Assembly: GCA_038231435.1 (NCBI GenBank)
Contig: JBBRLJ010000001.1
Span: 96,001 to 160,000 of the forward strand
Source: Planctomycetota bacterium
GTDB lineage: Bacteria > Planctomycetota > UBA11346
Direction: 5' to 3'
DNA length: 64,000 nt
Below, piece after piece: positions 2,016 to 21,650 of the stretch. The translations under genes and the position numbers were made by a program. How positions within the stretch are numbered: the first letter of the stretch is position 1; every line of letters begins with the position of its first letter. The notes below the pieces were generated by a model. That model was not told the origin of the DNA. It made no database searches and saw nothing but the letters and a program-made list of their open reading frames with translations.

Positions 2016-5000
2016 ATGGGACGCCGCACTGGGATCATCGCGACGGTCGCCGTCTGCATCGCCATGCTGGCGATCGCCGTGGCGCGTTTCCACACCACGC
2101 GTCCGGACGCTGACGGAGCGAGCGCGACGGGCGCGGGCTGGCGAGCGGAACCGACCGAGCTGGTGGCGCGCATCGAGCATCTCGCGGACGCTGGAGAAGC
2201 CGACGCGGCAGCGAGCGTGCTCGCGCAGCTGCTCAAGCGTGACGGCATCGCCGCAACCGGGCTCGACGATCGCGCGCGCATGGCGGCAGCGCGCGGCTAC
2301 CTGAAGGCGAAGCGCACCGATGAGGCCCTCGCGCAGGTCGCGGCCATCCCCTGGGCGGACAAGAGCCGGGCGGTCGCGGCGCAGATCCTCGGCCTCGAAT
2401 TGGCGATACGTTGGCAAGGTCTGTTCGATCGCGATGGCCACCTGGCCCCGGCGGCGCTCGGCCCGCGTTTGTCCCCCGAGGCTCCGCAAGGCCTGCCCAA
2501 GGGCGCGTGGCTGCAGCGCTGGGAGCACTACCGCGCGCTCGCCGAACTCATCGATCGCGGCGCACACATGGTTTCTTCCGAAGGTGGCGCGGTCGCGATG
2601 CCGGCGTCGGCCGCGATGATGCAACTCGCCCGCCACGATCACGGGGATCTCAGCGAATCGGATTTCGCTGCGGCGATGGGCCCTACGCGCGACTGGCAGC
2701 CCGAGCTGGCCCTGGCGATGTGCCGGCTGCGCCTGCAGGAGTACGCCATCCCCGAGGCGATCGCGGCGGCCGAGGCGCTGTGGTCGGGGCATCCCGCCAG
2801 TGGCGAGGCTGCCGAGGCGTACCATCTGCTGCGTGTTTGGCAGCTCGAGCGCGGCCTGGCCTCGGGACACCTGCCGTTGTGGCGGTATCCCGAGGTGGAC
2901 GCTCGGCTCGACGCCCTGGCGACCATCTATAAAGACGCGGCCAGAAGCGCGGATATCGCGGTGGCGAGGATCCAGGAGCTCAACCAATGGGGCATGGCGA
3001 GCGCTATTGCTGCGCAGGCCGCGAAGGCCGCGAAGCCATTGCTGGATGCGGTCGAGACCGCGATCCCAACGGCCGAGATCGCGAGGAACGAGGATGCGAT
3101 CGACGACCGGCCCGAGCGGCGGGTCTTCGCCCTGGCGCTGGCATGGAACGGGCTGGAGTTGGCCAGCGAACGGCGCGAGGTGCCGCTCGGCGAACCCGCC
3201 ACGCTGACCATCACCTCAGTGCATCGCGGCCCGCACACCGTGCGCATCCATCGCCTCCCCAACCGCAAGACCTGGGATGTGATGTGCACCAAACCATCCA
3301 ACGCGTTGCTGCCAGCGGAAGCGGTCCACACCAGGGAACTGCAGGGTGGAGACTGGTCATCCCTCGGCGAGCCCTGCGCGATGCCCTTCAACGTGGATGG
3401 CCTGGGCGAGGGCTTCTATGTCGCCACCGTGGCCGTGCGCGGATGTCCGACCACGGTGCTCACGGGCTTCGTGGTCGTGGACCCGGACCTGTACGTGATC
3501 GCTGGACGCGACGAGGTGGTCACCTGGGTGGTCAGCCGCGCCAGCGGCAAACAGAAGTCCGGCGAACCCCTGCGCGCGACGATGAGCCTGGTGCGCGACC
3601 CAGCGCAAGCGGCTGGATCGGCATGGGACGGCGCAGACCCGGTGTGGCGTGCGGGCTTCACCGAGGCCTTCACCGATGAGCCGTCCGCCGCATTCGTGAC
3701 CGACGCGCTACGACCGGTGTTCGCAGCTGGGCGCACGGCCGGCCTCGCGGCCTCGGCCACTGATCCCCCCTTCTCCGCCGAGCTGGATGCGGTGAGTGGC
3801 GAGGATGGCATCGGCCGCGTGGCGCTGCCCGTGAGACTGCGCGACCGTTCCTACACAGTGGCCGTCTCGATCTCGCGCCCCGATGTGATGGTCAGGCGCG
3901 AGGCCCGCGTAGGACCGGCGGCAGATTGGACCGCGAAGGCCGTGGCGTGGGCGGACCGGCCCCTGGTGCGTCCGGGAGAGACCGTGCATTGGAAGATGCT
4001 GATGCGCGATCTCGATGGCTACAGCTACCGGCTGCCGGTGGGCGAGATCGAGCTGACTCTGCGCCTCGACGACCAGGTGCTGTGGAGTGGAACCCAGGCG
4101 ATCACGGATGCCGGCACGGTGGGCGGAGAGCTCGCCATCCCGCCGGGAGCCGCCGAGGGCCGGCTCACCGTATCAGCGGGAACGTCCGGGCCGCGCCACG
4201 CGCTCGCCGGCATCGAACGGGCGGCGTTGCCGAGCGTGCGCTATGACGTGATCGAGGACGAGACGTCGCGCTTGCGCGCCGGGGAATCCATCCGCACCGG
4301 CATCGGCATCCATGACGCCGCCGGTGAGCCCATCGCCGGCGTCGAAGTCACGTGCTCGGTCACCGCGTACCTCGACGGCGTGGCCACGCCGTGCCCGCAG
4401 CCTGGCATAACCACCAGCGACGTCGCGGGTATTGCCCATGTGGTGATCGCCACCATCCCCGATGCCCAGGCGCTGTACCGCGCATATTTCTCGTTCACCG
4501 TCGATCACCATCGCTACCGCATCGAGCGCTCATGGCAGGCGAGCACCTTTCCCTTCCCCCTCGAGGCGGTGGTGCGCAACCGCCAGCTCTCGGCCGTGGA
4601 TTCGGTGCGCGTCGAGCTGCGCTTCCCGGCCGAGGCGCAGGTGACGGTGCGCCTGGTGCGTGGCGAGCAGGCACTAGGCGAGGATCAGCATCCGCGCGGC
4701 GCCTGGCCGCTGTGGTGCGAAGCGCACGTGCCGCTGGATCGTTCGACGCAGAACGCCGACGCGGTCGAGGTATCTACCGCGGTCGCGGGAGGCGGCAGGG
4801 CGCGCCTGCGCATCCCGATCACCATTGCGCCGCCACCGATATCCGCCGGTGCGCCCGAGGTGCAGCTCTCGCCGGACCGGCTGCGCGTCGAACCGGAGCA
4901 GACGCTGGGACTGACTCTCGGCGTGAATGTTCCGGGACGCGATGTGCTGCTCGTCGGCGGCTCGCGCTCGGTGCAGTTGCTCCGCACCACCCGCCTGGAC

Positions 5001-8000
5001 ACGCCGGCGCACCGAGTGGAGGTGGCGATCGCCAGCGACTGGGCGCCCAACATCTCGCTGCAGGCGGTCGCCTACCTTCCCATCCGCGGATTCACGGCGA
5101 CATCGCGCCAGGACATCGAAGTCAGCCCGGTCGACCGCCTGCTGCGCGTGGTGGTCACTCCCGAGCGCGAGGACTACCATCCTGGTGACGACGTCGCGGC
5201 GAGCGTGCTGATCAGCGATTGGAAGGGCAGGCCCGCGGGCGGGGTATCAGTCAGCATCGGCGTGGTCAATGAGCTCATCTACCAGCTCGCCGATGACGCC
5301 ACGCCCGACCTGTGGACCTATTTCTATGGTTACCGGCGCGCGTACGGCTTGGTCGAGGGCACGGCCACCGCACTGCCCTTTCCGTCTGCGTCGTTGTGGC
5401 ACGGCGTCGCGTGGCGCTGGCAGTCGCCCGAGGGCTTCGCCTGCATCGGCTCGGAGATGGCGCTCTCAGCGATGAACGGCGCGCGCTACGGCGGCGGTCG
5501 CGCGCGGTCGATCTCGAGGGGCGGCGGTGCGTCGGCGAGCGAAGCGGCCATGCTCGCTTTGGAATCGGGCGTCGCCATCGCCTGGGTCGGCGACCTGCGC
5601 ACCGACGCGGATGGGCGGGCGACGATACGCTTCACCATGCCGGCGAACACCGGCCGTTTCCGCTGCACCGCCCGCGCCAGCTCCACCGACGCGCAGCTGA
5701 TGGTCGGCGAGGTGCGCATGGGCATCACCAGCCGTCAACCCTTCGGCTGCGCGCTACGCCTGCCCGAGACCGCGCGCGAGGGAGACGTGGTGCAGGCCGA
5801 ACTGGCGCTCGCCAGCTACGACGACGCGCCGCTGGCGCTGGCGCTGGAATTGCCGGACGGCTCGCGGCGCGAACTCACGTTGCCGGGGCGCGCCCGGCGC
5901 GCGCTCGCAGTGCCGGTGCGCATCGCCGCAGGAGACGGCGAGATACGCGTCGCTGGCGGACAGGTCGGCCGCGTCGTCACCCTGCGCGCATCCGCGGTGG
6001 CGGTGGCTGGCGCAGCCAAGCTCGAGACCCGCATCGTGGCGGCAGCGCACTGCCTGGTGATCGCCGCCGGCATACCACGCACCTGGTCGGGATTGGTCAG
6101 CGCGGGCGCGGATGGCTCCATCAGCCTACCGTGGCCGGTGCCCGAGGGCGCGGCGCTACGCGTGCGCTGTCGCGCTTGGCCAGATGCCTCGGCGCGACGC
6201 GACGCGCTCGCCGCCAGCGCGCGCGCGGGCGTACCCGCGGGAGCGGTCGCCGCCTTGGCATGGCTCGAAGCGCCCGCCGGCGAACGGCGCGCACGAGCCC
6301 TGGCGACGTGCTGGTCCACGCTCGACAAGTACATCCCTTCGGCGCTCGCGCGCCAAGCCGCCGCTCGCCGTGGCGAGGCCTTCGGATCCCTGGGCGCCGT
6401 ACCCGACGGCGTCGACGGCGATTGGCTGCTCGCGCGCGGTCGCTTCGATGGCCTGCTGCTCGGTGCGCCGCGCGAACGCGGCCATGTCGCCAGCGCGGGC
6501 AGTGATCGGATCGCGGCGGTGGCCATAGCGCTCGCCGAGAGTTGGCCCGAGGGCCATGCCTGGTGGCCTGGCATCCTCCAGGAGCTGGACCGCGCCAGCG
6601 ATGGCCAGGGCACAGATCCAACGCTGTTCAGTCTCGCGCTCGGCATCGACGCGGCGCGCATGGCGGGCGATGAGTCCGCCCGTACCCGCTTGGCGGCCCG
6701 GCTCGGGCGCCTGCCGTGGACCTGCGAGTTCGATCAAGCCCTGGCCCTGGTATCCATCCCGTCGGGACCGGGATCGATCGGCGGCGCGGTCCTCGTCCAG
6801 GATCGCGCGGGAGTCGGTGCAGCCGCCGCGACCGACATCGCCACCCTCGCCACCATCGCCACCCTCGACGCAGGCGCCGCGAGCGAGTGGCTCGGCGTCG
6901 CCGGTCCGTCGTTCACGTTGTCATCGACGCCAGGCGCGCTCGCGGATCTGGAAGTGCTGATGCAGACACCGGCACCGCTGCAAGCGAAGTCCGTCCAGCT
7001 CAGCGCCACCTTCTACGAGCGCTGCGAGGACGGCGGCTACACCGCCGTCCCCGCCGGTCGAGCGCTCTGGCCCGGACGTCCGCTGGCGATGGCGATCGCA
7101 TCGCCACAGATGGCCGAGGTGGTGCTGCGCCTGCCGAGCCTGCTGCGCATCGCCCCCGAGGGCGGCGAGTTCCTCATCGTCGATGCCGAGCGGTCGTCGA
7201 TCAGGATCGACGGAGACATCCGCCTGGCCGCGAGCCTGCTCGAGGGTGGCGATCGTGATGGCGCCCTCGCCAGTTTCTTCTCCATGTGCCAGCGCAATCC
7301 GGTGCTGCGGACAGGCGTGGGCCAACGCCTGCCGGTGCATGGAGCGGATTCCAAAGCCTTGATCTCCGCGGATGGAACCCTGTCGTTAAGCGTCTGGCCC
7401 GGACAGCCCACGTTCATCGCGCTCGCGACCTCCAGCGAGGGAACGGCGGCCTGGCCGCCGCTCGCCATCACTGGCACCATGCCAGGCGCTCAAGAACGCC
7501 AGCAGGAGCTTCCCAGCATCGTGGTGGGTGTCGGCGACATCGCGCCCCTAGCAGCACCGGAGATCGGCCTACCTGCGCGCGCACTCGCACGTCTGCGCCA
7601 CCTGGCCGCCGATGCGTCCACCGAGGACCTGAGCGCGCTGCTGCTCCAGATGCAGGACCTCGATGTCGACGACGATCCCCGCATCGCGCTGCTCGACCGG
7701 CACGCGGCGCACGATCCAGCGGCGCTGCTGGCGCATCCCCTCTCTGGGGTCCCGGGACACTGGTCGACGGCCGCGCTGCGCGCCTGGAGCGACGGCGACT
7801 TGATGCTGGCGGTGGACACTCCTACTTTGAAGCGCTGGTTGAGCCTCATGGATGGGGGCAGGAACCGCGCGACCGGGCTACAAGATGTTCCGGATGCCGG
7901 AGCGGAACTGGTCGCGGGGGTGGATTGGACCGCCGAGCTCGCACACCCCACCATGCGCACGTTGATCCTGCTCGCCGAGGCCGATGCCGCGCTGCGCAGG

Positions 8001-8636
8001 GAGATCGAGGTGCGCCTGCCGACCTCGATGGCGACGGCGCCGCGCGTAGTCTCGACCGCCAGGGACTGGTTCAGGCGTCTTGGCGCGCTCGGTCTCGCCC
8101 CGGCGCGGGACTACGACACCTGGGTCTGGGAGCAGGAGCTCGATGCGGATCTGCAGTCGACACTGGGATATCCAAGCGGGGTCGACGGCTGGGTCGCCTT
8201 CCTGCGCACACGCTGCGGGCTCGAGGTGCGCATCGGCACGGGGGTACCTGTCGAGATCCCCGGCATCGACCAGGTCTCGGGCCCGCGGCTGGGCGCATCC
8301 TTGCTCACGACGTGCGGATATGCCCTGCAACGTGTGGGCCCCGCGCTCGAGATTCGTCCGGCGCGGGGATTCATCCTCCAGGAACACCTCCTGACCATCA
8401 GCATCGATGTCACCGACGAACGCCTCGATACGGTTGTCGCCGACCTCGATACGCTGCTCGCCAATCGCGGCCTGCCGCCGCTGGAGGTGGACCCCGCATT
8501 CCATGGCGGCGATACGCGAGTCACGTTCGCCTGCAAGGAAGCGGACTGGCGGAACGCGGTGACATCGTTGGCGAGCGTGATCGGCGCGACGGTTGCATTC
8601 GACGGGAATCATGCGGCCCTGCGCCACGCGCATTGA
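2016..8636 (+). CDS. giant alpha-2-macroglobulin-like (MG2/A2M domain) envelope protein
   Basis: N-terminal hydrophobic anchor; MG2 signature ADRPLVRPGETVHWK; REDYHPGDDV; A2M segment WVGDLRTDADGRATIRFTMPANTGRFRCTARA; GGAGG SD; no CxEQ thioester seen. Confidence 0.8.
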   Translation: MGRRTGIIATVAVCIAMLAIAVARFHTTRPDADGASATGAGWRAEPTELVARIEHLADAGEADAAASVLAQLLKRDGIAATGLDDRARMAAARGYLKAKRTDEALAQVAAIPWADKSRAVAAQILGLELAIRWQGLFDRDGHLAPAALGPRLSPEAPQGLPKGAWLQRWEHYRALAELIDRGAHMVSSEGGAVAMPASAAMMQLARHDHGDLSESDFAAAMGPTRDWQPELALAMCRLRLQEYAIPEAIAAAEALWSGHPASGEAAEAYHLLRVWQLERGLASGHLPLWRYPEVDARLDALATIYKDAARSADIAVARIQELNQWGMASAIAAQAAKAAKPLLDAVETAIPTAEIARNEDAIDDRPERRVFALALAWNGLELASERREVPLGEPATLTITSVHRGPHTVRIHRLPNRKTWDVMCTKPSNALLPAEAVHTRELQGGDWSSLGEPCAMPFNVDGLGEGFYVATVAVRGCPTTVLTGFVVVDPDLYVIAGRDEVVTWVVSRASGKQKSGEPLRATMSLVRDPAQAAGSAWDGADPVWRAGFTEAFTDEPSAAFVTDALRPVFAAGRTAGLAASATDPPFSAELDAVSGEDGIGRVALPVRLRDRSYTVAVSISRPDVMVRREARVGPAADWTAKAVAWADRPLVRPGETVHWKMLMRDLDGYSYRLPVGEIELTLRLDDQVLWSGTQAITDAGTVGGELAIPPGAAEGRLTVSAGTSGPRHALAGIERAALPSVRYDVIEDETSRLRAGESIRTGIGIHDAAGEPIAGVEVTCSVTAYLDGVATPCPQPGITTSDVAGIAHVVIATIPDAQALYRAYFSFTVDHHRYRIERSWQASTFPFPLEAVVRNRQLSAVDSVRVELRFPAEAQVTVRLVRGEQALGEDQHPRGAWPLWCEAHVPLDRSTQNADAVEVSTAVAGGGRARLRIPITIAPPPISAGAPEVQLSPDRLRVEPEQTLGLTLGVNVPGRDVLLVGGSRSVQLLRTTRLDTPAHRVEVAIASDWAPNISLQAVAYLPIRGFTATSRQDIEVSPVDRLLRVVVTPEREDYHPGDDVAASVLISDWKGRPAGGVSVSIGVVNELIYQLADDATPDLWTYFYGYRRAYGLVEGTATALPFPSASLWHGVAWRWQSPEGFACIGSEMALSAMNGARYGGGRARSISRGGGASASEAAMLALESGVAIAWVGDLRTDADGRATIRFTMPANTGRFRCTARASSTDAQLMVGEVRMGITSRQPFGCALRLPETAREGDVVQAELALASYDDAPLALALELPDGSRRELTLPGRARRALAVPVRIAAGDGEIRVAGGQVGRVVTLRASAVAVAGAAKLETRIVAAAHCLVIAAGIPRTWSGLVSAGADGSISLPWPVPEGAALRVRCRAWPDASARRDALAASARAGVPAGAVAALAWLEAPAGERRARALATCWSTLDKYIPSALARQAAARRGEAFGSLGAVPDGVDGDWLLARGRFDGLLLGAPRERGHVASAGSDRIAAVAIALAESWPEGHAWWPGILQELDRASDGQGTDPTLFSLALGIDAARMAGDESARTRLAARLGRLPWTCEFDQALALVSIPSGPGSIGGAVLVQDRAGVGAAAATDIATLATIATLDAGAASEWLGVAGPSFTLSSTPGALADLEVLMQTPAPLQAKSVQLSATFYERCEDGGYTAVPAGRALWPGRPLAMAIASPQMAEVVLRLPSLLRIAPEGGEFLIVDAERSSIRIDGDIRLAASLLEGGDRDGALASFFSMCQRNPVLRTGVGQRLPVHGADSKALISADGTLSLSVWPGQPTFIALATSSEGTAAWPPLAITGTMPGAQERQQELPSIVVGVGDIAPLAAPEIGLPARALARLRHLAADASTEDLSALLLQMQDLDVDDDPRIALLDRHAAHDPAALLAHPLSGVPGHWSTAALRAWSDGDLMLAVDTPTLKRWLSLMDGGRNRATGLQDVPDAGAELVAGVDWTAELAHPTMRTLILLAEADAALRREIEVRLPTSMATAPRVVSTARDWFRRLGALGLAPARDYDTWVWEQELDADLQSTLGYPSGVDGWVAFLRTRCGLEVRIGTGVPVEIPGIDQVSGPRLGASLLTTCGYALQRVGPALEIRPARGFILQEHLLTISIDVTDERLDTVVADLDTLLANRGLPPLEVDPAFHGGDTRVTFACKEADWRNAVTSLASVIGATVAFDGNHAALRHAH

Positions 8637-10163: not shown

Positions 10164-11141
10164 ATGCCCCTGCTTACCTTGCGCCCCACGCTCGTCCTGC
10201 TCATCGCTGCTCTCGCCGGCTGCGGCGGGCATTCCGCCCTCGACCAGCCCGGGTGGCATCAGGGCGTGGTGGAGCACGACCAACGCGAGCTCGGCTTCGA
10301 GATCGCCGGCACGGTACGGTCGGTGACGGTGACGCGCGGCGCGCCGGTCGACCGCGACCAGGCGCTCGCCGAACTCGATGACCGGCTCGAAACCGCAGCG
10401 ATCGCGCAACGCGAGGCCGAGGTGCGTGTCGCCGAGGCGCGGCTCGCGCTCGTCGCCGCCGGTCCGCGCGCCCAGGATATCGCGATCGCGCGCGCCCAGG
10501 CCGAGTCGGCCGGAGTCTCCGCCGAGGTCGCTGGCGCCGAATTCGAGCGCCAGCGGGCCATCGCCGCGCAGAAGGCCCTGTCGGCGAGCGAGCTCGACCT
10601 GGCGCGCGGACGCCTGGCCGAGGCCACCGCCAACCGTGTCTCCGCCGAGCAGCGTCTGGCCACGGCGGTCGAAGGCGCACGGCCCGAGGAGAAGGCCGAG
10701 GCACAGGCCGCGCTCGAGGCCGCCCAGGCCACACTCGCCTTCGAGCGCGAGCGACTCGCCCGCCACTGGCTGCATGCGCCGATCGCCGGCCGCGTGGTCG
10801 AGGTCGCCGTCGATCCGGGCGAAGCCGCGCTGCCGGGGCGCGTGGTGTTGACCATTGCCGACACGCGCCACCCCTACATCGACGCCTATGTTCCCGAGAA
10901 GCAGCTCGCCGGCCTCGCCATCGGCGGCCACGCCCAAGCGCGCATCGACGGCGATGACCGCGTCTTCTCGGGCACCATCGAGGACATCGGCCGCCAGCTC
11001 GAGTACACGCCGCGCTTCCTGTTCAGCCCCGCCGATCGGCCGAACCTGGTGATGCGCGTGCGCGTGCGCGTCGACGATGCCGACGAACGCCTGCATGCAG
11101 GCGTGCCCGCCGCCGTGCGCTTCGGCGACGACGTGAAATGA
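10164..11141 (+). CDS. HlyD-family periplasmic adaptor subunit (YbhG-like), probable lipoprotein
   Basis: Lipobox-like LAGC, lipoyl halves (IAGTV, APIAGRV), coiled coil, EYTPRFL motif; coupled to ABC genes. Confidence 0.88.
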   Translation: MPLLTLRPTLVLLIAALAGCGGHSALDQPGWHQGVVEHDQRELGFEIAGTVRSVTVTRGAPVDRDQALAELDDRLETAAIAQREAEVRVAEARLALVAAGPRAQDIAIARAQAESAGVSAEVAGAEFERQRAIAAQKALSASELDLARGRLAEATANRVSAEQRLATAVEGARPEEKAEAQAALEAAQATLAFERERLARHWLHAPIAGRVVEVAVDPGEAALPGRVVLTIADTRHPYIDAYVPEKQLAGLAIGGHAQARIDGDDRVFSGTIEDIGRQLEYTPRFLFSPADRPNLVMRVRVRVDDADERLHAGVPAAVRFGDDVK

Positions 11142-12085
11142 CCGCCGGCGCGGGCGAGAGCGTGGTGGCAACCCGCGCCCTGTCCCGGCGCTTCGGCGAC
11201 CTGGTGGCGGTGCGCGGCATCGACCTCGACATCCGTCGTGGCGAGGTATTCGGGGTGCTCGGGCCCAATGGCGCCGGGAAATCGACGCTCATCCGCATGC
11301 TGTGCGGGATCCTCGCGCCCAGCTCAGGATCCGGCACAGTACTCGGCCTGGACGTGGCGACGCAATCGGAGCGTATCAAGGAGCGGATCGGCTACATGTC
11401 GCAGCGCTTCTCGCTCTACGAGGATCTCACCGTCGAGGAGAACCTGCGCTTCTACGCTGGCCTCTACGGCCTGCCATTCATCGGCAAGCGGCCGCAGGTG
11501 CACGAGACCCTCGCCCGCATCGGCCTCCAGGACCGCCGATCACAGCTGGCCGGCACGCTTTCGGGAGGATGGAAGCAGCGCCTGGCGCTGGCCTGCTCCA
11601 CCATCCATTCGCCGCCGCTGCTGTTTCTCGACGAGCCGACCGCTGGTGTCGATCCGGTGAGCCGCCGTGCCTTCTGGGACCAGATCCACCGCATCGCGCA
11701 CGACGGCACCACCGTGCTGGTCACCACCCACTACATGGACGAGGCCGAACGCTGCCACCGCATCGCGTTCATCTTCCGCGGCATGCTCATGGACGTCGGT
11801 ACGCCGGATGAGGTGGTCGATCGGCGCAGACTGTCGGTGTGCGAGATCGAATCTGGCGATCCCGCGGCCGCGGCCGCGGTGCTCTCGGCGACCGCGGGGA
11901 TCGCCGATGTCTCGTTCTTCGGGCGTAGCCTGCGCGTCACCGCGCGCGACGGCGTCGATGCCGCCGCGTCAGCGGTCACGGCACTGGCGGCGGCAGGGAT
12001 CTCGACGCCGGCGCCCCGGCCGCGTCGCGCAACGGTCGAGGATGCGTTCATCTCGCTGGTGCGCACCGAGGAACGCACGTCATGA
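11138..12085 (+). CDS. ABC transporter ATP-binding protein (YbhF-like)
   Basis: Walker A GPNGAGKS, signature LSGGWKQR, Walker B LLFLDEPT, H-loop TTHYM. Confidence 0.93.
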   Translation: MTAGAGESVVATRALSRRFGDLVAVRGIDLDIRRGEVFGVLGPNGAGKSTLIRMLCGILAPSSGSGTVLGLDVATQSERIKERIGYMSQRFSLYEDLTVEENLRFYAGLYGLPFIGKRPQVHETLARIGLQDRRSQLAGTLSGGWKQRLALACSTIHSPPLLFLDEPTAGVDPVSRRAFWDQIHRIAHDGTTVLVTTHYMDEAERCHRIAFIFRGMLMDVGTPDEVVDRRRLSVCEIESGDPAAAAAVLSATAGIADVSFFGRSLRVTARDGVDAAASAVTALAAAGISTPAPRPRRATVEDAFISLVRTEERTS

Positions 12086-13212
12086 GGCGGTTGCTCGCCG
12101 TCGCCTGGAAGGAGATGCGCCAGCTGATGCGCGATCGCCTCACCGCGGGCATGATGCTGGGCATCCCGGCGCTGCAGTTCCTGCTCTTCGGCTACGCTAT
12201 CAACACCGATGTGCGGCACCTGCCGCTCGCGGTGCTCGATCGCGATCGCACGCCCGCGTCGCGCGAACTCGCGCGGGCCCTGACCGTGACCGGCTACTTC
12301 GACATCGCCGGCGCCGTCGAGGACGACGCCCAGGTCGAACGCGCCCTGCGCATCGGCGGAGCGCGCGCCGCGCTGGTCATCCTGCCCGGATTCTCAGCGG
12401 ATCTCGCATCCGGACGCGGAGCGCGCGCACAGCTGGTGGTGGACGGCACAGACCCCCTCACCGTCACCAGCGCGAGCAACGCCGCGGTTGGATTGGCCTC
12501 GGCGCGCTCGGTGGCGCTGATGGTCCAGCGCCAGGCGGTCAGCGGCGGAGCAGCCGGAGGATCGGCGCAGCCGGCATTGACGATCGAACCGACGGTGTGG
12601 TACAACCCCGAGCTGCGCACCGCCGTCTACATCGTGCCCGGACTGGTGGGGGTGATCCTCACCCTGACCATGGTGATGATGACGGCGATGGCGATCGCGC
12701 GCGAGCGCGAACGCGGCACGCTCGAGGCGTTGGTGGTGTCTCCGGTCCGGCGCATCGAGCTGATCGGCGGCAAGATCCTCCCTTACATCGTGCTCGGCTA
12801 TCTGCAGATGACGCTGGTCCTGCTGCTCGGCTGGTGGCTCTTCGACATCCCGCTCGCGCGCCTAGGCTCGCTCTATCTCGCGGCGCTGCTGTTCATCGCC
12901 GACAACCTCTCGATCGGCCTGCTGTTCTCGACCCTCGCGAGCACCCAGGGCCAGGCGATGCAGATGTCGTTCTTCTTCCTGCTGCCCAACATCCTGCTCA
13001 GCGGCTTCATGTTCCCGCTCGCTGGCATGCCTGCCCCGATCGCGGCGGTGGCCGAGATCCTGCCGCTGACGCATTTCCTGCGCATCGTGCGCGGGCTCGA
13101 GCTCAAGGGCGCGACGCTCCTCGACTTCGGCGGCGACCTGCTGGCATTGGCCGTGGCGCTCACCGTGCTGGTGGCGCTGAGCACATGGCGCTTCCAGAAG
13201 CGCTTGGCCTGA
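12082..13212 (+). CDS. ABC-2 type transporter permease (YbhR/YbhS-like)
   Basis: LFGYAINTDV, WYNPEL, IARERERGTLE, LSGFMFP motifs; ATGA overlap with ATPase. Confidence 0.92.
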   Translation: MRRLLAVAWKEMRQLMRDRLTAGMMLGIPALQFLLFGYAINTDVRHLPLAVLDRDRTPASRELARALTVTGYFDIAGAVEDDAQVERALRIGGARAALVILPGFSADLASGRGARAQLVVDGTDPLTVTSASNAAVGLASARSVALMVQRQAVSGGAAGGSAQPALTIEPTVWYNPELRTAVYIVPGLVGVILTLTMVMMTAMAIARERERGTLEALVVSPVRRIELIGGKILPYIVLGYLQMTLVLLLGWWLFDIPLARLGSLYLAALLFIADNLSIGLLFSTLASTQGQAMQMSFFFLLPNILLSGFMFPLAGMPAPIAAVAEILPLTHFLRIVRGLELKGATLLDFGGDLLALAVALTVLVALSTWRFQKRLA

Positions 13213-15177: not shown

Positions 15178-16326
15178 CTACGGGTTCGCTGAAAGCGCCG
15201 CGCCTGTCTCCGCGTGAGGCGCGGACGGGATGCGCAGCTCGAGCTGCTCGCCAGGCAGCAGGTCGCCGGAATCGACCAGGGAGAAACGCAGGCAGCGCAC
15301 GCGCGTGTCGATCACATCCCCCGGAGCCCCGGAGGATTCACGTTTCGCACGCGCGACGGGCTCGATGAGCAGCACCTTCGCTGTCCAGGTGCGCGTCGGG
15401 TCGCCGCGACGCCAGGCGATCGCGTCGGCGGTACCCGCCCGCCATGCGTCGAGCGCATCCACCTCGGCGGTCAGGCGCAGGCGGGAGTCGTCGGCTAGAT
15501 CTAGCAGTCCGCCGCCCTCTGGCGCCACCCATTCACCGGCATGGACGGCGAGACGCATGATCTTGCCCGCGCGTGGAGCGTGGATGGTGCGCTGTGAGAG
15601 CGCGACGCGGGCGATCTCCACCGCCGACCGATCGGCGGCTGCGGTCGCCTCGGCAACCGCGATCGCGCTCACCGCCGCCTGCGCCTCTGCCTCGGCTACC
15701 GCGACATCGCGCGTCCAGCCGGGCGCGGCCGCCCGCAAGGCTTCCGCCGCGGCCTGGGCCGCGCGCGCGTCCGCGGCCTCGGCCTGGCGCGTACGCTCAG
15801 CCAGGTCGGCGGCCGGCACGATGCCGCGCGCCAGCTTCTGATAGCGTGCGAGTCGCTCGCGTGCCTCGGCTGCCTCGGCGCGCGCGACGCGTTCGGCCTC
15901 GGTCGCTGGCGCCACGTCTTCTGGACGCGGCTGCCCAGACACACGCGCGAGCCGGGCTTGCGCGATCGCGAGTTCTGCCCGGCGCAGGTCGACAATGATG
16001 GCAGCGGCGGACGCGATGCTTTCAGCGGCCTGGACGCGCGCGCGCGCCTCGGCGTCGTCGAGCACCACCAGCACATCCCCGGCCGCGACGCGCTGGCCGA
16101 CCACCACCTGGACCGCCGCGACCACGCCCGCCACCGCCGGCGCCACGCGTGTCGACTCGTCCAGTGGTTCCACCAGGCCGATCCCGTAGACGCCGCCCAC
16201 CGCAGGCTCGGACGATGCGATGGTCGGATCGGGGATCCGCGGCGAGCGCGCCGCGACCAGGGCGGCAAATCCCGCGCCTACGACGGCGAGGGCGGCGGTG
16301 ATACCGAGCGTGGCGCGGTTCCTCAT
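15178..16326 (-). CDS. HlyD/DevB-like membrane fusion protein of ABC exporter
   Basis: N-terminal TM, GIGLVEP, lipoyl motifs, long coiled coil, DTRV near the C-terminus. Confidence 0.85.
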   Translation of the reverse strand: MRNRATLGITAALAVVGAGFAALVAARSPRIPDPTIASSEPAVGGVYGIGLVEPLDESTRVAPAVAGVVAAVQVVVGQRVAAGDVLVVLDDAEARARVQAAESIASAAAIIVDLRRAELAIAQARLARVSGQPRPEDVAPATEAERVARAEAAEARERLARYQKLARGIVPAADLAERTRQAEAADARAAQAAAEALRAAAPGWTRDVAVAEAEAQAAVSAIAVAEATAAADRSAVEIARVALSQRTIHAPRAGKIMRLAVHAGEWVAPEGGGLLDLADDSRLRLTAEVDALDAWRAGTADAIAWRRGDPTRTWTAKVLLIEPVARAKRESSGAPGDVIDTRVRCLRFSLVDSGDLLPGEQLELRIPSAPHAETGAALSANP

Positions 16327-17201
16327 GGATGCTCCTTCCGCGTTCCCGCGGATGCGACTGATGCCGTGGATGCGGCTGGTGCGGTATCGGAATCGGGGGA
16401 TGTCACCACCGGTGGGGCGAGCTGGGCAAGTTGTGCGGCGTCCCCAAGGACCGGCGCGTCGGCGGATCCGTCGTCGTCACCGGCTCCGCCTGGCGTGGAG
16501 TCTCCCACTGGCAGCCGGCGGCGGACGATGCGCACAATGTGGCCATCCTCCATGGTGGCGATGCGATCGGCGAAGCCGTAGGCGCGCTGATCGTGCGTGA
16601 CCACGATCAACGTCCTCCCGCGTTCTGCCGCGAGCGAGCGCAGTAGGATCATGGCGCGGCGGCCGGTCGCCTGGTCGAGGGCGCTGGTCGGCTCGTCGCA
16701 CACCACCAGCGACGGCTCGTGGACGATGGCGCGCGCAATGGCGACGCGCTGCTGCTGACCGCCCGAGAGCTGCTGCGGATAGGTACCGAGCCGCGAACCC
16801 ATGCCTACCCGCTCGAGTACCATGGTCGCGCGCTCGCGTGCGACCATGCGGCTCATGCCGATCAAGAGCGCCGGCAGCTCGACGTTCTCGAGCGCGGTCA
16901 GGCCCGGGATCAGATTGAAGGCCTGGAAGACGAAACCGAGATGCCGCGCACGGAAATCAGCGAGCGCCCTGGGTGAGAGGCTGAAGGGACGCTCGCCCAG
17001 CACCTCCACCTCGCCGGCATCGGGACGTAGGATCGCGGCGAGCACCGACACCAGGGTGGTCTTGCCGCATCCCGACGGACCGATGACCATCATCAGCGCT
17101 CCGGCGGGCACCTCGAGCCGCACGCCGCGCAGGGCGCGCACCGACGCCTCGCCTGCGCCAAAGGATTTGCTCACGCCACTGAGTGAGGCGGCGGCTTGCA
17201 T
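16323..17201 (-). CDS. ABC exporter ATP-binding protein (DevA/LolD-like) with low-complexity C-terminal tail
   Basis: GPSGCGKTT, LGFVFQAFNL, LSGGQQQRVAIARA, CDEPTSALD, VTHD. Confidence 0.92.
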   Translation of the reverse strand: MQAAASLSGVSKSFGAGEASVRALRGVRLEVPAGALMMVIGPSGCGKTTLVSVLAAILRPDAGEVEVLGERPFSLSPRALADFRARHLGFVFQAFNLIPGLTALENVELPALLIGMSRMVARERATMVLERVGMGSRLGTYPQQLSGGQQQRVAIARAIVHEPSLVVCDEPTSALDQATGRRAMILLRSLAAERGRTLIVVTHDQRAYGFADRIATMEDGHIVRIVRRRLPVGDSTPGGAGDDDGSADAPVLGDAAQLAQLAPPVVTSPDSDTAPAASTASVASAGTRKEHP

Positions 17202-17202
17202 A

Positions 17203-18453
17203 TCAGCTCCGGAACACCGTCGCGGGATCGGCGCGCGTCGCCCGCCATCCGCCGAAGAGCGCGGCGATCACCACGATCACCACCGTCGCGCCCGCCGTGA
17301 GCGCAAACAATCCGGGGGTCAGGCGCGAGGCGAGGATGGTGCCGTGGACGGCGCGATCGAAGAGCGCCGCAAGGCCGATGCCGATCCCGTAGCCGAGCGC
17401 CCCCGCCGTGAGCGCCTGCGCGCAGACCATCGCCATGATCGTCCTGGTGCCCGCGCCCATGGCCTTGAGCGCGGCGAAATGACGCAGGTGATCATTGATG
17501 AACTGCAGGAAGGTCTGCCCGGCGATCGCCAGTCCCACTACGAAGCCGAGCCCGACGGCGATGGCGAAATTCGCAGGGATTCCGGTGTTTATCAGCAGGA
17601 AGATGAAATTCTCGTCGGAGAACGCGTCTCTAGTCAATGCCTTCAGCCCGGTCGCCGACGACACCGCGCGCGCCAGGCGCTCGTGATCGGCGCCAGGAAC
17701 GGCGCCGGCGAGGATGAAGCCCACCGAGCGCCGCTCCACCGCCTCATGGCGTCCGCGCGCGACCCAGATCACCGGCTGAAACTGGAAATTCCGCAGCGTG
17801 CGGCTGATGCCGACCACGGTCATCTCGCGTTCACCGACCGCCACGCGGTCGCCCACGCGCACCGGTATCCGGCTCGCTCCGGATCCGATCGCCAGATGGT
17901 CGGCAGCCTCGGCGTCGATCACCACCGCGTCTGGTCGCCGCAGGTCCTCAGCGTTCCCGGCTAGCATCGCGGTCGGCCCGCCGGCGAGCGTGCGTTCATC
18001 GATCGAGAACATCTGGCACTGCTCGTAGGTCCCGTCGCGGCGCCGCACCAGTTCGGGGCGCACGTTCAGCGCCGATGCCCAGGCCACGCCCTCCACCGAG
18101 GCCACGCGTCGCACGTCCGCAGGGCGCAGCGGCCACGAGATGGTGGTCATCTGCGCGTGCGGATCCGCCACCCACAAGTCGGCGCGCGAGGCGTCTACGG
18201 GATGCCGCGACAACTCCATCACGCCGAGGAACACGCCGAGCTGCTGGGTCATGAGCAGGGACGAGAATGCTATGCCGAAGACGATGCCCAGCAGCCTGGT
18301 GCGGTCGTAGACCAGCATCGACACCGCCTGGCGGAGCAGCCAGGGAGCCGACGGCGCAGCGGCGAGCTGGACATCGGAGGTCTCGACGACGGGCTCGACC
18401 CGGCCGCCGGAGACGCGGCGGACACGACCTCGCGACGGAGGACGCTGGCTCAC
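17203..18453 (-). CDS. ABC exporter permease (DevC/FtsX-like)
   Basis: MLVYDRTRLLGIVFGIAFSSLLMTQQ, ADLWV, FAALKAMGA, DPATVFR; GTG start overlaps the ThiF stop. Confidence 0.88.
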   Translation of the reverse strand: MSQRPPSRGRVRRVSGGRVEPVVETSDVQLAAAPSAPWLLRQAVSMLVYDRTRLLGIVFGIAFSSLLMTQQLGVFLGVMELSRHPVDASRADLWVADPHAQMTTISWPLRPADVRRVASVEGVAWASALNVRPELVRRRDGTYEQCQMFSIDERTLAGGPTAMLAGNAEDLRRPDAVVIDAEAADHLAIGSGASRIPVRVGDRVAVGEREMTVVGISRTLRNFQFQPVIWVARGRHEAVERRSVGFILAGAVPGADHERLARAVSSATGLKALTRDAFSDENFIFLLINTGIPANFAIAVGLGFVVGLAIAGQTFLQFINDHLRHFAALKAMGAGTRTIMAMVCAQALTAGALGYGIGIGLAALFDRAVHGTILASRLTPGLFALTAGATVVIVVIAALFGGWRATRADPATVFRS

Positions 18454-19409
18454 GACCGCCCCTGGGCATGGACCCGGGCGGAGGTGATGGTCGGATCATT
18501 CTGCACTCCCGCCGATCGCGAGCGTTCGGCCACCTCTTGCTCGTGCATGGCCTTGAAGGCGGGAAAGCGCGCGAAGCACAGGCGCCGCAGCAGGCGGCCG
18601 CGTAGGCTGCGAGTCAGCGATGGCCGCGGGCGCAGCTTGCGCACGCGACCGCGGAACGGGTCGTAATAGATGCCTCGGGGTGCGGCCATGGGTGCCCCTC
18701 GTCCACACAGCAGTTTCAACGTTTCGGTGCCTGCCGCCGCCGCGCACAGCATACAGGCGGTCGCGAGCGCCGGCCCGTTCTCGCCGGGGATGTCGACGCG
18801 CGCGGGATCGACATCGCTCACCAGGCCAGGCGCCAGGCCCAGGGCCATCGCCATCAGCTGCTCGGCGCGAGTCATGCCTTCCTCGAAGCGGAAGTAGTCC
18901 TCGAACGACATGCCACACGGCAAGAACACCAGCACCGCGGCGCCGTATCCGATCGGCCCTGCGTTCACCACTGGGATACCGCGCGCGCGGCAGGCGCCAT
19001 AGAGCAGCTTGCGCGCCTCGATGCGGAAGAAATCGATGCCATCGACCACCACCTCGACCCCGAACAGGAAGGACTCGATGTTGGTTTCGGTGATCCCCTC
19101 GCTGAAAACGCGCACCGAAGCGTCCGGGTTGATCGATGAGATCATGTCGGCGCAGACATCGGCCTTGCCCATGCCGATGGTCAGCATGGTCGCGCCGAGT
19201 TGGCGATTCAGGTTGGGGATATCGAAAGTGTCGGGATCGGCGAGATGGAAGGCGCCGATCCCGAGGCGGGCGAGCGTCTGCGCATGTCCGCCGCCGACGC
19301 CGCCGAGGCCTGCGAGCGCGACTCTGGCACCGCGCATGCGCGCCTGCTCGACCTCGCTCACCAGGCCGAGATTTCGCCGGAAGGCCTGATCATAGGCGAA
19401 GGCGCTCAT
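18450..19409 (-). CDS. ThiF/E1-like adenylyltransferase (no Zn CxxC pair, no nitroreductase domain)
   Basis: FRRNLG, AGLGGVGG, ADPDTFDIPNLNRQ, KAD, VVDGIDFF; ATGA overlap with the upstream acyltransferase. Confidence 0.88.
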   Translation of the reverse strand: MSAFAYDQAFRRNLGLVSEVEQARMRGARVALAGLGGVGGGHAQTLARLGIGAFHLADPDTFDIPNLNRQLGATMLTIGMGKADVCADMISSINPDASVRVFSEGITETNIESFLFGVEVVVDGIDFFRIEARKLLYGACRARGIPVVNAGPIGYGAAVLVFLPCGMSFEDYFRFEEGMTRAEQLMAMALGLAPGLVSDVDPARVDIPGENGPALATACMLCAAAAGTETLKLLCGRGAPMAAPRGIYYDPFRGRVRKLRPRPSLTRSLRGRLLRRLCFARFPAFKAMHEQEVAERSRSAGVQNDPTITSARVHAQGRS

Positions 19410-20317
19410 GGAGGGACACCGAGGCGCTGGCTGATCGGCACGGGACGCTTGCTGAGGTAATTCACCAGCAATGGATGACTGACGGCCTGCGCTTCCCAAG
19501 CCGGAGCCAACGGCGCGAGCAGCGATGCCGTCCGCGGGTCTTGCAGGAGGGCGCGCAGCGCGCGGCGGTCGATGCGGTATGGTTGGCGCAGCCCGCGAAA
19601 CTCCACACCGGGACCGATCGGATGGAAGACGAAACCGACACTGCGTGCGAGCTGCTGCAGGCGCGGTTCCATCAGAGCGAGGATGTAGTCCAACCGCGCA
19701 TGGACGGCGAGATGCGCAGCAGACAACCACAGGAACGAAGCGAGATTCTGGCGATGCTGGCTTTCCTCGCGCCAGCGGACCGCATCGATAGCCGCGGGCG
19801 GCCGACAGTCCTGCGAACGCGTGAAGCGTCGGAACGGCGCAACGATGCAGAAGCGCGATATCTCGGTGTATCCAAGGCGATCGCTGCCATCACGCGGCAG
19901 CATGCCCGTCTCCAGATGGGTGCAGACCTCCTCGAGATGGAACGGCGCCGCCAGGCATTGGGGATCGGCGAGCATCAGCCGGAAGCAGCCGATCGGCATG
20001 CCGGTGGCACGGTAATAGGCGACCACGCTCACCGAACGCATATCCGCGGCGTCGTATTCCAGATGATCTGGAAATCGCCCAGCCGGCTCGTAACCCAACT
20101 CATCGCAGTACACTTGCCAGCGCACCGAGAACGCGTCGCGCTCGGTGCTATCATCGGTCGCGACGCGCAGCTCGAAGATCTCGTCGATGCCGTGCTGGGG
20201 AGGCAGCACGCCGTCGGGCACGATTGGATCGGGCATCACCAGCGACGGCATGCGCTGGTAATGGAACGCCGGCACCAGCCGATTCGCGAGCGGAGTGATG
20301 GTCAGCGCCGCGCTCAC
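19406..20317 (-). CDS. GNAT-fold N-acyl amino acid synthase (PEP-CTERM/exosortase-associated acyltransferase / FeeM-like)
   Basis: AFSVRWQVYCDELGYE, EYDAAD, GCFRL, EISRFCI..FRR, ALMEPRL, IGPGVEFRGLRQPY; GTG start overlaps the ACP stop (alternative ATG 20251). Confidence 0.82.
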   Translation of the reverse strand: MSAALTITPLANRLVPAFHYQRMPSLVMPDPIVPDGVLPPQHGIDEIFELRVATDDSTERDAFSVRWQVYCDELGYEPAGRFPDHLEYDAADMRSVSVVAYYRATGMPIGCFRLMLADPQCLAAPFHLEEVCTHLETGMLPRDGSDRLGYTEISRFCIVAPFRRFTRSQDCRPPAAIDAVRWREESQHRQNLASFLWLSAAHLAVHARLDYILALMEPRLQQLARSVGFVFHPIGPGVEFRGLRQPYRIDRRALRALLQDPRTASLLAPLAPAWEAQAVSHPLLVNYLSKRPVPISQRLGVPP

Positions 20318-20547
20318 GGCTTGCCGCCCAAGGCGAGGATCTTCTGCGCCACATCGGCCAAGGTGGTGGTGTCCTTCGGCTCGTAGTCGGACATCTGCAC
20401 GCCGCAGATGCTCTCGATCTCCATCACCAGATTCACCGCGGTCATCGAATCCCAGTTCGGGCAATCGCTCAGGCGCAAGGTCGGCACCAGGGCGTCGTCG
20501 GCGAGTGACGGGAAGGCGTTGCGCATCGCCAGGGCGAGATTCTGCAT
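20314..20547 (-). CDS. acyl carrier protein
   Basis: 77 aa with phosphopantetheine site WDSMTAVNLVMEIE; AAGGAG SD. Confidence 0.88.
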   Translation of the reverse strand: MQNLALAMRNAFPSLADDALVPTLRLSDCPNWDSMTAVNLVMEIESICGVQMSDYEPKDTTTLADVAQKILALGGKP

Positions 20548-20549
20548 GG

Positions 20550-21650
20550 TCAGGCTCCTTGGGTGGTGGTTGGATCGGCAACGGGCGACGCGCTTGCGTC
20601 GGCCCGGGGACAGGCGTCGTGCGGTGCGATGAAACGGCATCCAGCCCAGGCGAGCCCGCCGCCGAAGACGGCGAGCAGTACCGATTGGCCCGCGGGGACC
20701 GGTCCACCGCGCGCGAGCTCGTCCAAGGCGATGAACACGCCCGCAGCTCCGGTGTTGCCGTAGCGGTCGAGATTGACCGGGAAGCGCTCGCGCGACAGCC
20801 CGCTGCGATCGGCGATTCCGTAGATGATGTTGATGTTGGCCTGGTGCAGCACCGCCGCGTGCACGCGCTCGCGGCCGCCTGCCATGGCAGTCAGCGCCTC
20901 GATCATCATCGCACCCTTGTCGATGGCGAACTCGAGGACCTTCTTCCCTTCCATGCGGAAGTAGAGCCGCTTGGGATCGGTACACGTCGTGCTGGGCTCG
21001 CGCGTGCCTCCGGCGGGAATCTCGATCACATGCTGTCCGCTGCCATCGCAGCCGAGGATGGTTTCATCGACGCAGGCGCGCGCCCAGGCCTTGTCAGCGT
21101 GCGCCGCTCCACCGATCAGCACCGCGCCAGCACCGTCACCGAAGTAGGGATAGGAGCTGAAGTCCTTCGGATTCATCAGCTTGGTGGTGGTATCGGCGCC
21201 GATCACCAGCAGCGGGCCCTTGGCGATCGGCAACATGCCGATCGCCGCGGTCAGCGCGTACAGCGCGCTGCTGCACACCGCCGCGAGATCGAAGGCGAAG
21301 GCGCTGGTAGGCGCCTTGAGCGCGTCGTGCACGATCGCCGCGGTCGGCGGGATGATCTTGTCCGCGCAACAGCTGCCGACCACGATGCCGCCGAGTGCGG
21401 AGGCGGAGATCCCGGCGCGTTCGAGACAGCGCCGAGCCGCCGCGATGGCCAGATCCGACGTCGCGGTCTCGGCGTCGGCGTGGCGACGCTCGCGGATGCC
21501 GGTCTTCACCGCGATCATCGGCAGCATTGCCGCCGGGAACTGCGTCAGATCGGCGTTGGCGACCACGCGATTTGGCACGGCGTGGCCGGTCGCCAGGATG
21601 TACGCCGGCGCGCTCGTGTGCCGCTGGACTGATGGGGACTGGCTCTGCAT
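20550..21650 (-). CDS. 3-oxoacyl-ACP synthase III (FabH-like)
   Basis: KTGIRERR; catalytic Cys (AAVCSS), FGDGAGA, His (LHQAN), Asn (YGNTGAAG), FGGGLAW. Confidence 0.9.
   Translation of the reverse strand: MQSQSPSVQRHTSAPAYILATGHAVPNRVVANADLTQFPAAMLPMIAVKTGIRERRHADAETATSDLAIAAARRCLERAGISASALGGIVVGSCCADKIIPPTAAIVHDALKAPTSAFAFDLAAVCSSALYALTAAIGMLPIAKGPLLVIGADTTTKLMNPKDFSSYPYFGDGAGAVLIGGAAHADKAWARACVDETILGCDGSGQHVIEIPAGGTREPSTTCTDPKRLYFRMEGKKVLEFAIDKGAMMIEALTAMAGGRERVHAAVLHQANINIIYGIADRSGLSRERFPVNLDRYGNTGAAGVFIALDELARGGPVPAGQSVLLAVFGGGLAWAGCRFIAPHDACPRADASASPVADPTTTQGA

What the first reader, a model, noticed from the sequence alone, without database searches (positions are those of the whole stretch)
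15178..21650. Self-contained N-acyl amino acid/oxazolone-type lipid biosynthesis and export operon (FabH-ACP-NAS-ThiF-DevCAB)
Seen: seven co-directional genes joined by overlapping or 1-2 nt junctions (20550/20547, GTGA at 20314-20317, ATGA at 19406-19409, GTGA at 18450-18453, 17203/17201, ATGA at 16323-16326). They encode KAS III with an intact C/H/N triad, a dedicated ACP (WDSM), an exosortase-associated/FeeM-type acyltransferase, a ThiF adenylyltransferase and a tripartite exporter. Known: FeeM- and ExoAT-type enzymes make long-chain N-acyl amino acids from acyl-ACP, and DevBCA-type exporters secrete glycolipids in cyanobacteria. Inference: a private FabH+ACP supplies an unusual acyl chain that is amide-linked to an amino acid, activated by ThiF and exported as a signal, antibiotic or surface lipid. 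No exosortase or PEP-CTERM gene is in the window. I do not know of a characterised cluster with this exact composition.
Basis: partly seen in the sequence, partly recalled or inferred. Interest (0 to 1): 0.85.

Follow-up and report, generated by a model that had tools for sequence, protein, structure and literature searches.

The report
Acyl-amino-acid cluster with private starter module
A real seven-gene cluster, probably from a planctomycete, that likely joins an acyl chain to an amino acid, activates it with ATP and exports it, as the known oxazolone pathways do, but with an unusual condensing enzyme and its own carrier protein where relatives have a fatty-acid loader, which would give a different and still unknown product.

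Summary
The seven genes, their junctions and their family labels are as described. The acyltransferase is ExoAT-type (TIGR03694), not FeeM-type. The ThiF is PRK08223-type and 46% identical to ThiF domains of ThiF-nitroreductase fusions. So the core works like OxzAB/TyzABC. Relatives in the same family carry ACP-acyltransferase-ThiF-DevCAB with a fatty acyl-AMP ligase where this cluster has KAS III. The KAS III form recurs: one contig read directly, and five more inferred from matching contig lengths. The KAS III belongs to a distinct subfamily. It keeps Cys-His-Asn but lacks three residues found in 24 of 24 housekeeping FabH enzymes, and it sits beside a [WF]DSM carrier in three unrelated genomes, once next to a PHA synthase. 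No nitroreductase or ketoreductase is in the cluster. The likely product is an N-(3-oxoacyl) amino acid cyclised by ThiF, either to a saturated oxazolone or, more novel, to a tetramic acid. The cluster is not self-contained: FabD, a PPTase and a TolC-type channel are encoded elsewhere. No product has been measured. Verdict: new variant of a known kind.

The parts
20550..21650 (-). KAS III, 366 aa, of a distinct subfamily (motif DFxxYPYFGD); triad C126/H269/N299; M45, F164 and N274 where housekeeping FabH has W, R and R
   Evidence: PRK09352 250.7 bits, cut-off 249; TIGR00747 below cut-off; residue counts; tree
20314..20547 (-). Dedicated divergent acyl carrier protein, 77 aa, WDSM with Ser34
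   Evidence: weak ACP hits; 64% identical to the L071 ACP, 26-32% to ACPs beside the same KAS III subfamily, 16-25% to FAAL-linked ACPs
19406..20317 (-). ExoAT-type N-acyltransferase, 303 aa, LuxI/FeeM-like GNAT fold
   Evidence: TIGR03694 145.8 bits, cut-off 111.95; PF13444 in 31 of 31 homologues; model pLDDT 87; fold searches
18450..19409 (-). ThiF-family adenylating/cyclising enzyme, 319 aa, PRK08223 type, no fused nitroreductase
   Evidence: PRK08223 331 bits, cut-off 266; MoeB, ThiF and TcdA models 92 bits or less; ATP-binding residues conserved, 45-46% identical to the ThiF domains of two ThiF-nitroreductase fusions
17203..18453 (-). DevC-like MacB/FtsX permease, 416 aa; the only DevC match in the genome
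16323..17201 (-). DevA-like ABC ATPase, 292 aa with a low-complexity C-terminal tail
15178..16326 (-). DevB-like membrane fusion protein, 382 aa, N-terminal hydrophobic segment
21789..24400 (-). Possible regulators: ECF sigma factor (24400-23873) and FecR-domain protein (23876-21789), co-directional and directly upstream; a link to the cluster is inferred only
   Evidence: ECF sigma genes also adjoin L167, L068, L165, and sigma-FecR-ThiF occurs twice in L004

Best explanation
This seven-gene cluster likely makes and exports an N-acyl amino acid derivative: the KAS III is predicted to condense a short 3-oxoacyl chain on its own ACP, the ExoAT would transfer it to an amino acid, the ThiF would adenylate and cyclise the product, and the DevBCA-like pump would export it. 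Shown: gene content, tight junctions, family membership, catalytic residues, recurrence of the arrangement, and KAS III+ACP standing where relatives have FAAL+ACP. Inferred from characterised families: amide formation by the ExoAT, and ATP-dependent activation and cyclisation by the ThiF (as in OxzB, TyzB, TrzS). Inferred from weaker clues: the KAS III condenses rather than only loads; the chain is short and keeps its 3-oxo group (no ketoreductase in the cluster); the KAS III is private to its ACP. The default end product is a saturated oxazolone or the N-acyl amino acid it hydrolyses back to; a 3-acyl tetramic acid is the alternative closure. The amino acid is not known.
For: Families over cut-off. 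TIGR03694 genes sit directly before ThiF-nitroreductase fusions in L077 and L121, the OxzAB layout (layout from bioRxiv 10.1101/2020.06.11.147165 passages). A nitroreductase lies within 4 kb in 35 of 63 other ThiF matches. Same-family genomes: L167 FAAL-ACP-NAT-ThiF-DevC-DevA-DevB-FeeM; L163 FAAL-DevA-ACP-NAT-ThiF with DevC-DevB divergent; L162 FAAL-ACP-NAT-DevC-DevA with ThiF-nitroreductase divergent; L068 ACP-NAT-ThiF. DevCAB also adjoins ThiF in L003, L033 and L020. KAS III form: L071 has FabH-ACP-NAT at 61/64/56%. 5 of 11 close KAS III homologues share a longest-contig length and source with an acyltransferase homologue, against 1 of 108 distant ones (Fisher p 1.5e-5; shifted control mean 0.07). 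The closest ThiF homologue (77%) has the same 27306-base length. The seven KAS III-linked acyltransferases fall in one 10-row group apart from the FAAL-linked ones (SH-aLRT 81, quick tree). His and Asn are kept in 120 of 120 subfamily members. The subfamily sits beside a [WF]DSM ACP in L199, L206 and L207, with a PHA synthase-like gene and FabD in L206 and an LnmK-like protein in L207. TrzS can cyclise before desaturation, giving a saturated ring (PMC12856293 passages).
Against: No product was measured. The acyltransferase fold is closer to AHL synthases (Z 15.7, rmsd 3.3, 199 aligned) than to FeeM (Z 13.3, rmsd 3.5, 174 aligned). Craig et al. 2011, the source for ExoAT activity, was not held; I rely on a citing passage and recall. 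The short-chain idea rests on one PHA synthase neighbour and on top plasmid hits in mevalonate clusters, but the tree does not place this subfamily with those NphT7-like enzymes. In Stieleria neptunia the synthase inside the cluster was not the main producer, and the ThiF role there is called enigmatic (PMC12479983), so clustering in this phylum can mislead. Housekeeping FabG could reduce the 3-oxo group, and a nitroreductase on C32 could act in trans.
Confidence: 0.6

Rival explanations
1. The KAS III is only a loader: it moves an existing acyl chain onto the private ACP, doing the job of FAAL in relatives, and the product is an ordinary N-acyl amino acid or oxazolone with a normal fatty chain.
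For: KAS III occupies the FAAL slot. This genome has no close FAAL homologue, best hit 29%. FAAL-type relatives L163 and L167 also lack a nitroreductase, so the downstream chemistry may be the same.
Against: His269 and Asn299 are kept in 120 of 120 subfamily members; loader-type KAS III enzymes usually change the triad (recalled, not tested). The module sits beside FabD or an LnmK-like protein elsewhere.
Confidence: 0.2
2. The acyltransferase is a LuxI-like synthase that uses SAM to make a 3-oxoacyl homoserine lactone or related signal, and ThiF acts on something else.
For: The top 10 Foldseek hits and top 4 VIA-align hits are AHL synthases. The residues matching TofI (R66, E87, D89, D92, R113, E152, S154, R155) are invariant in 31 homologues.
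Against: PF00765 is matched by only 4 of 31 members, best E 0.018, against PF13444 in 31 of 31. The same residues occur in TIGR03694 proteins before ThiF-nitroreductase fusions. TyzA is also nearest to BjaI and FeeM by structure yet acylates tyrosine. No Autoind_bind domain was found in the genome, 87.6% complete. ThiF needs a free carboxylate.
Confidence: 0.08
3. The activated N-acyl amino acid is an acyl donor for a cell-surface polymer, lipid or protein, so the exported product is an envelope component rather than a small molecule.
For: ExoAT genes are tied to exosortase and EPS systems, and an ExoAT knockout lost its polysaccharide band (PMC11072679 passages). Related loci carry an exosortase (L003), PEP-CTERM proteins (L090, L137) or dTDP-rhamnose genes (L162).
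Against: No exosortase match in this genome and no polysaccharide-synthesis genes next to the cluster. The PEP-CTERM search rang in no control, so it shows nothing.
Confidence: 0.12

Closest known systems
OxzAB of Pseudoalteromonas rubra; TyzABC and TrzAS of mycobacteria (acyl-oxazolones)
   Same: N-acyltransferase of LuxI/FeeM-like fold next to a ThiF of the group that is fused or adjacent to a flavin-dependent oxidase.
   Different: No nitroreductase in the cluster. It has its own ACP, KAS III and exporter; the characterised enzymes were assayed with acyl-CoA. Direct sequence comparison with OxzB or TyzB was not possible because no tool supplied them.
[quoted passage not shown]
   Same: N-acyl amino acid synthase plus ThiF in Planctomycetota and others, with transporters nearby. 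This genome has such a ThiF-FeeM-nitroreductase trio on C32.
   Different: The window cluster has an ExoAT, a private KAS III+ACP, and no desaturase or methyltransferase.
ExoAT (TIGR03694) N-acyl amino acid synthases of PEP-CTERM/exosortase loci (Craig et al. 2011; not read, seen through citing passages)
   Same: Over the family cut-off.
   Different: No exosortase match in the genome; part of a lineage-specific clade of about 30 proteins at 51-70% identity.
fee cluster (FeeM with the ACP FeeL)
   Same: [quoted passage not shown]
   Different: The synthase is 14-15% identical to FeeM-family proteins; ThiF present; KAS III present.
NphT7 acetoacetyl-CoA synthase
   Same: The best plasmid hits of the KAS III (41-42%) lie in Streptomyces mevalonate clusters, the NphT7 position; both lack the arginine after HQAN.
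   Different: Separate groups on the tree. The mevalonate enzymes keep the W and a basic residue near the R site and have no adjacent ACP.
DevBCA (HgdBCA) glycolipid exporter of Anabaena (function recalled)
   Same: DevA, DevB and DevC are the best or second-best NCBIfam matches.
   Different: All three score below cut-off; the order is C-A-B; the substrate is unknown.

Membership tests
Acyl-oxazolone pathway (OxzAB/TyzABC/TrzAS) | N-acyltransferase of LuxI/FeeM-like fold | tested here: met
Acyl-oxazolone pathway (OxzAB/TyzABC/TrzAS) | ThiF cyclase of the oxidase-linked group with intact ATP site | tested here: met
   PRK08223 over cut-off, also passed by the L077 fusion; 45-46% identity to fusion domains; not compared with OxzB or TyzB themselves
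Acyl-oxazolone pathway (OxzAB/TyzABC/TrzAS) | Fused or adjacent flavin-dependent oxidase (nitroreductase) | tested here: not met
   No hit near the window ThiF; the only genome hit of the profile is on C32
Acyl-oxazolone pathway (OxzAB/TyzABC/TrzAS) | Makes an acyl-oxazolone from Tyr, Phe or Trp | not testable with these tools
   needs LC-MS
ExoAT (TIGR03694) | Score over the curated cut-off | tested here: met
   145.8 against 111.95 bits
ExoAT (TIGR03694) | Exosortase/PEP-CTERM system in the genome | tested here: inconclusive
   No exosortase match in an 87.6% complete genome; the PEP-CTERM search had no positive control
FeeM-type synthase (PF21926) | Match to PF21926 | tested here: not met
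   No hit for the window protein; 7 of 31 homologues weak, best E 0.0019
LuxI AHL synthase | Match to PF00765 | tested here: not met
   No hit for the window protein; 4 of 31 homologues, best E 0.018
LuxI AHL synthase | LuxI fold and conserved Arg/Glu/Asp residues | tested here: met
   not diagnostic, since other TIGR03694 proteins share them
LuxI AHL synthase | Uses SAM as amine donor | not testable with these tools
   needs an enzyme assay
Housekeeping FabH | Cys-His-Asn triad | tested here: met
Housekeeping FabH | Trp and Arg at the CoA-adenine site and Arg after HQAN (roles recalled from E. coli W32, R151, R249) | tested here: not met
   M45, F164, N274; W, R, R in 24 of 24 housekeeping FabH of the order; W and R at the first two sites in 0 of 120 subfamily members; N at the third in 115 of 120
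NphT7 acetoacetyl-CoA synthase | Groups with mevalonate-cluster KAS III and lies in a mevalonate cluster | tested here: not met
   separate groups, SH-aLRT 99, quick tree of 34 rows; context differs
DevBCA exporter | TIGR02982, TIGR02971, TIGR01185 over cut-off | tested here: not met
   213/295.8, 61/129 and 56/290 bits; DevBCA-like only

The most novel reading that the evidence does not exclude
The cluster is a route to 3-acyl tetramic acids without any NRPS or PKS. A private KAS III/ACP pair makes acetoacetyl- or another 3-oxoacyl-ACP, the ExoAT amidates an amino acid with it, and ThiF adenylation lets the beta-keto methylene close a pyrrolidine-2,4-dione ring in place of the oxazolone, so no desaturase is needed. 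The enzyme-free version of this closure is known for 3-oxo-AHLs (PMC8307130 passages). The KAS III would be the first case with a proposed product for an apparently unstudied subfamily of at least 120 proteins that pairs with its own ACP.
Probability: 0.17. Interest if true: 0.8.

Novelty: new variant of a known kind. Interest (0 to 1): 0.52.

Why it matters
The role of ThiF enzymes in N-acyl amino acid clusters that lack a desaturase is open; PMC12479983 calls it enigmatic even where a desaturase is present. Here one scaffold exists in two forms within a lineage, with FAAL+ACP or KAS III+ACP as acyl supply. That gives a natural side-by-side experiment on how acyl supply sets the product. The four biosynthetic genes span 3.2 kb and can be expressed together. 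A tetramate product would be a new ring-forming role for ThiF enzymes. An ordinary product would still give a first function for an odd KAS III subfamily. The interest is for natural-product and planctomycete specialists; the logic is assembled from known parts.

Tried and rejected
NphT7 orthology: suggested by plasmid hits, not supported by the tree. FeeM membership: rejected. Cofactor-synthesis or tRNA ThiF/MoeB/TcdA: 92 bits or less against 331. Missing desaturase as a sign specific to the KAS III form: rejected, because L163, L167, L068, L165 and L053 lack one too. L070 as an independent case: its acyltransferase is nearly identical to that of L163. Close KAS III orthologues in the order: none in 47 other genomes; the hits listed were 32-38% identical. 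TIGR03694 over cut-off in the phylum sample: 2 of 401 genomes, this one included. KAS III subfamily motif: 2 of 401 phylum genomes, 0 viral stretches. Profile search in other phyla: 5 of 301, 1 of 251 and 0 of 241 genomes passed; 2 of the 5 were not subfamily members. Promoter and terminator scan: at chance level. RNA runs: none was listed. PEP-CTERM genome search: no control rang. N-acyl-cyclolysine link: one review passage gave no enzymes. Literature: 1 irrelevant paper held all of ThiF, FabH, acyl carrier protein, N-acyltransferase and gene cluster; none of the 10 listed of 15 tetramate papers contained ThiF; most subscription journals are not in the library. The acyltransferase tree is the quick tree; the careful search did not finish. 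My ORF caller misses some genes, so neighbour lists are incomplete. No complex prediction was sent. bioRxiv supplements on OxzA families were not seen and may bear on which family OxzA belongs to.
Full report
Observation. Seven ORFs lie head to tail on the minus strand from 21650 to 15178. All have high GC3. Co-transcription is inferred from these junctions; no RNA run was listed. An ECF sigma factor and a FecR-domain gene lie directly upstream in the same direction. The organism is probably a planctomycete, judged from the names on close protein homologues.

Gene identities. The acyltransferase passes TIGR03694 and matches PF13444, not FeeM. The ThiF passes PRK08223 at 331 bits, scores 256 with PRK14851, and 92 or less with MoeB, ThiF and TcdA models. 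The KAS III just passes PRK09352 and has Cys126, His269 and Asn299. The ACP is divergent but has Ser34 in WDSM. The three transport genes are DevC-, DevA- and DevB-like, below the curated cut-offs. FabD, one PPTase and several TolC-type channels are on other contigs, so the cluster is not self-contained.

What the core works like. OxzA acylates tyrosine and the ThiF-nitroreductase fusion OxzB cyclises and oxidises the product with ATP (bioRxiv 10.1101/2020.06.11.147165, passages; PMC12596934, passages). In L077 and L121 a TIGR03694 gene lies directly before such a fusion, whose ThiF part is 45-46% identical to the window ThiF. Of 63 other ThiF matches examined, after dropping 22 loci as duplicates, 35 have a flavin-dependent oxidase within 4 kb. 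The profile was built from 9 of these loci, and 5 of the 28 negatives have under 600 bases of flank on one side. The window ThiF has none. The genome's only hit to that profile is on C32, in a ThiF-FeeM-nitroreductase trio. TrzS can cyclise without desaturation (PMC12856293, passages), so a ThiF alone can close a saturated ring.

The LuxI question. The model of the acyltransferase (pLDDT 87) is nearest to AHL synthases: RpaI Z 15.7, TofI 14.8, LasI 14.7, MesI 13.9, FeeM 13.3 (Foldseek agrees). Residues matching TofI are invariant in 31 homologues. I do not count it as a refutation. TyzA is likewise nearest to BjaI and FeeM and acylates tyrosine (PMC10404671, passages). The residues are shared by TIGR03694 proteins in OxzAB-like layouts. 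PF00765 is barely touched, and no autoinducer-binding domain was found in the genome. It remains a rival at low odds.

Synteny. With the acyltransferase profile, 5 of 48 genomes of the order match, this one included. L167 reads FAAL-ACP-NAT-ThiF-DevC-DevA-DevB-FeeM, the same order as the window with FAAL in place of KAS III. L163 and L162 hold the same genes rearranged; L068 has ACP-NAT-ThiF. Several other family copies of the acyltransferase lie in unrelated contexts (L065, L066, L067). DevCAB also adjoins ThiF in L003, L033 and L020. The KAS III form was read directly only in L071 (FabH-ACP-NAT, 1.9 kb). Five of 11 close KAS III homologues share a longest-contig length and source with an acyltransferase homologue, against 1 of 108 distant ones; the 27306-base case also matches the closest ThiF. 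These are inferred, not read. On a quick tree of 61 rows the seven KAS III-linked acyltransferases fall in one 10-row group with modest support (SH-aLRT 81), apart from the FAAL-linked ones. The two other genomes of the genus gave no match; they are 61% and 79% complete.

The KAS III/ACP module. The window enzyme, its 11 close and 108 more distant homologues share a DFxxYPYFGD-type motif. None of the 120 has the Trp or the Arg found at positions 45 and 164 in 24 of 24 housekeeping FabH of the order; at position 274, Arg in 24 of 24 housekeeping enzymes, 115 of 120 have Asn. From recall, these correspond to E. coli W32 and R151, which hold the CoA adenine, and R249, which docks ACP; PMC10054515 (passages) mentions W32 and R151 only as inhibitor contacts. 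The subfamily forms one group with SH-aLRT 99 on a 34-row quick tree. In three unrelated genomes it is followed by a [WF]DSM ACP, with no ExoAT or ThiF seen nearby: alone in L199, with a PHA synthase-like gene and FabD in L206, and with an LnmK-like and a FabK-like gene in L207. In L201 and L203 it precedes a different ACP, in L201 with an acyl-CoA ligase. The window ACP is slightly closer to the module ACPs (26-32%) than to FAAL-linked ACPs (16-25%). I infer that a KAS III+ACP module replaced FAAL+ACP, or the reverse; no root was tested. The PHA synthase neighbour and the best plasmid hits, which lie in mevalonate clusters at the NphT7 position (PMC5509993, passages), hint at a four-carbon 3-oxoacyl product. 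The tree does not support NphT7 orthology, so the hint is weak.

Mechanism. Most likely the KAS III builds a 3-oxoacyl chain on its ACP, the ExoAT passes it to an amino acid, ThiF adenylates the carboxylate and the product cyclises, and the pump exports it (0.6 for this outline). With no ketoreductase in the cluster the 3-oxo group may survive. An activated N-(3-oxoacyl) amino acid can close through oxygen to a saturated oxazolone or through carbon to a tetramic acid; 3-oxo-AHLs make the carbon closure without an enzyme (PMC8307130, passages). I put the tetramate outcome at about 0.17. Against it, FAAL-type relatives also lack the oxidase, and host FabG or the C32 oxidase could act in trans. 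A caution from this phylum: in Stieleria neptunia the clustered synthase was not the main producer (PMC12479983, parts 1-2 of 5 read).

Novelty. The parts and the NAT-ThiF logic are known. I found no description of this composition in the searches run, which miss most subscription journals; Craig et al. 2011 was not held. Two earlier notes of this scan describe carrier-linked oxazolone clusters in CPR bacteria; these are unchecked leads, but they suggest dedicated ACPs in such clusters are not rare. Other papers seen as passages only: PMC7293339, PMC12078418, PMC11511702, PMC11072679, PMC13419125, PMC11631085. Verdict: a new variant of a known kind, interest about 0.5.

Noticed in passing
G000:C32, L051 7432-10665: A second cluster in the same genome, ThiF-FeeM-nitroreductase, a complete stieleriacine/TyzABC-like trio; its ThiF is about 60% identical to the window's.
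   Followed up: partly
L206 7746-11591 (G545): The same KAS III subfamily with an FDSM ACP, a class I PHA synthase-like gene and FabD in one run: a possible ACP-dependent route into PHA without thiolase.
   Followed up: partly
L207 7707-11262 (G947): KAS III subfamily, WDSM ACP, an LnmK-like protein with an N-terminal ACP-like stretch, and a FabK-like gene.
   Followed up: partly
P0037-P0155: A KAS III subfamily of at least 120 proteins that lacks the canonical Trp/Arg/Arg residues and has a DFxxYPYFGD motif; no close solved structure, best E 1e-43.
   Followed up: partly
L004 = L054 (G039:C154): Three PRK08223-like ThiF genes in 11.6 kb, two preceded by ECF sigma-FecR pairs and one followed by FeeM.
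   Followed up: no
L065-L068 (G017): One genome of the family holds five ExoAT copies; three lie near FAD-binding oxidase genes, two of these also near methyltransferases.
   Followed up: no
L164-L166 (G423): Three ExoAT copies each next to a ketosynthase gene, a third type of acyl supply.
   Followed up: no
window 10164-13212 and 32756-36977: Two further export systems: a HlyD/ABC-2 set on the + strand 2 kb from the cluster, and an RND pair.
   Followed up: no
window 1926-8633: A 2236-aa bacterial alpha-2-macroglobulin-like gene.
   Followed up: no
G000:C30, L196 3454-4425: The housekeeping-type fabH lies directly upstream of 2-oxoacid dehydrogenase E1/E2 genes rather than in a fab operon.
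   Followed up: no
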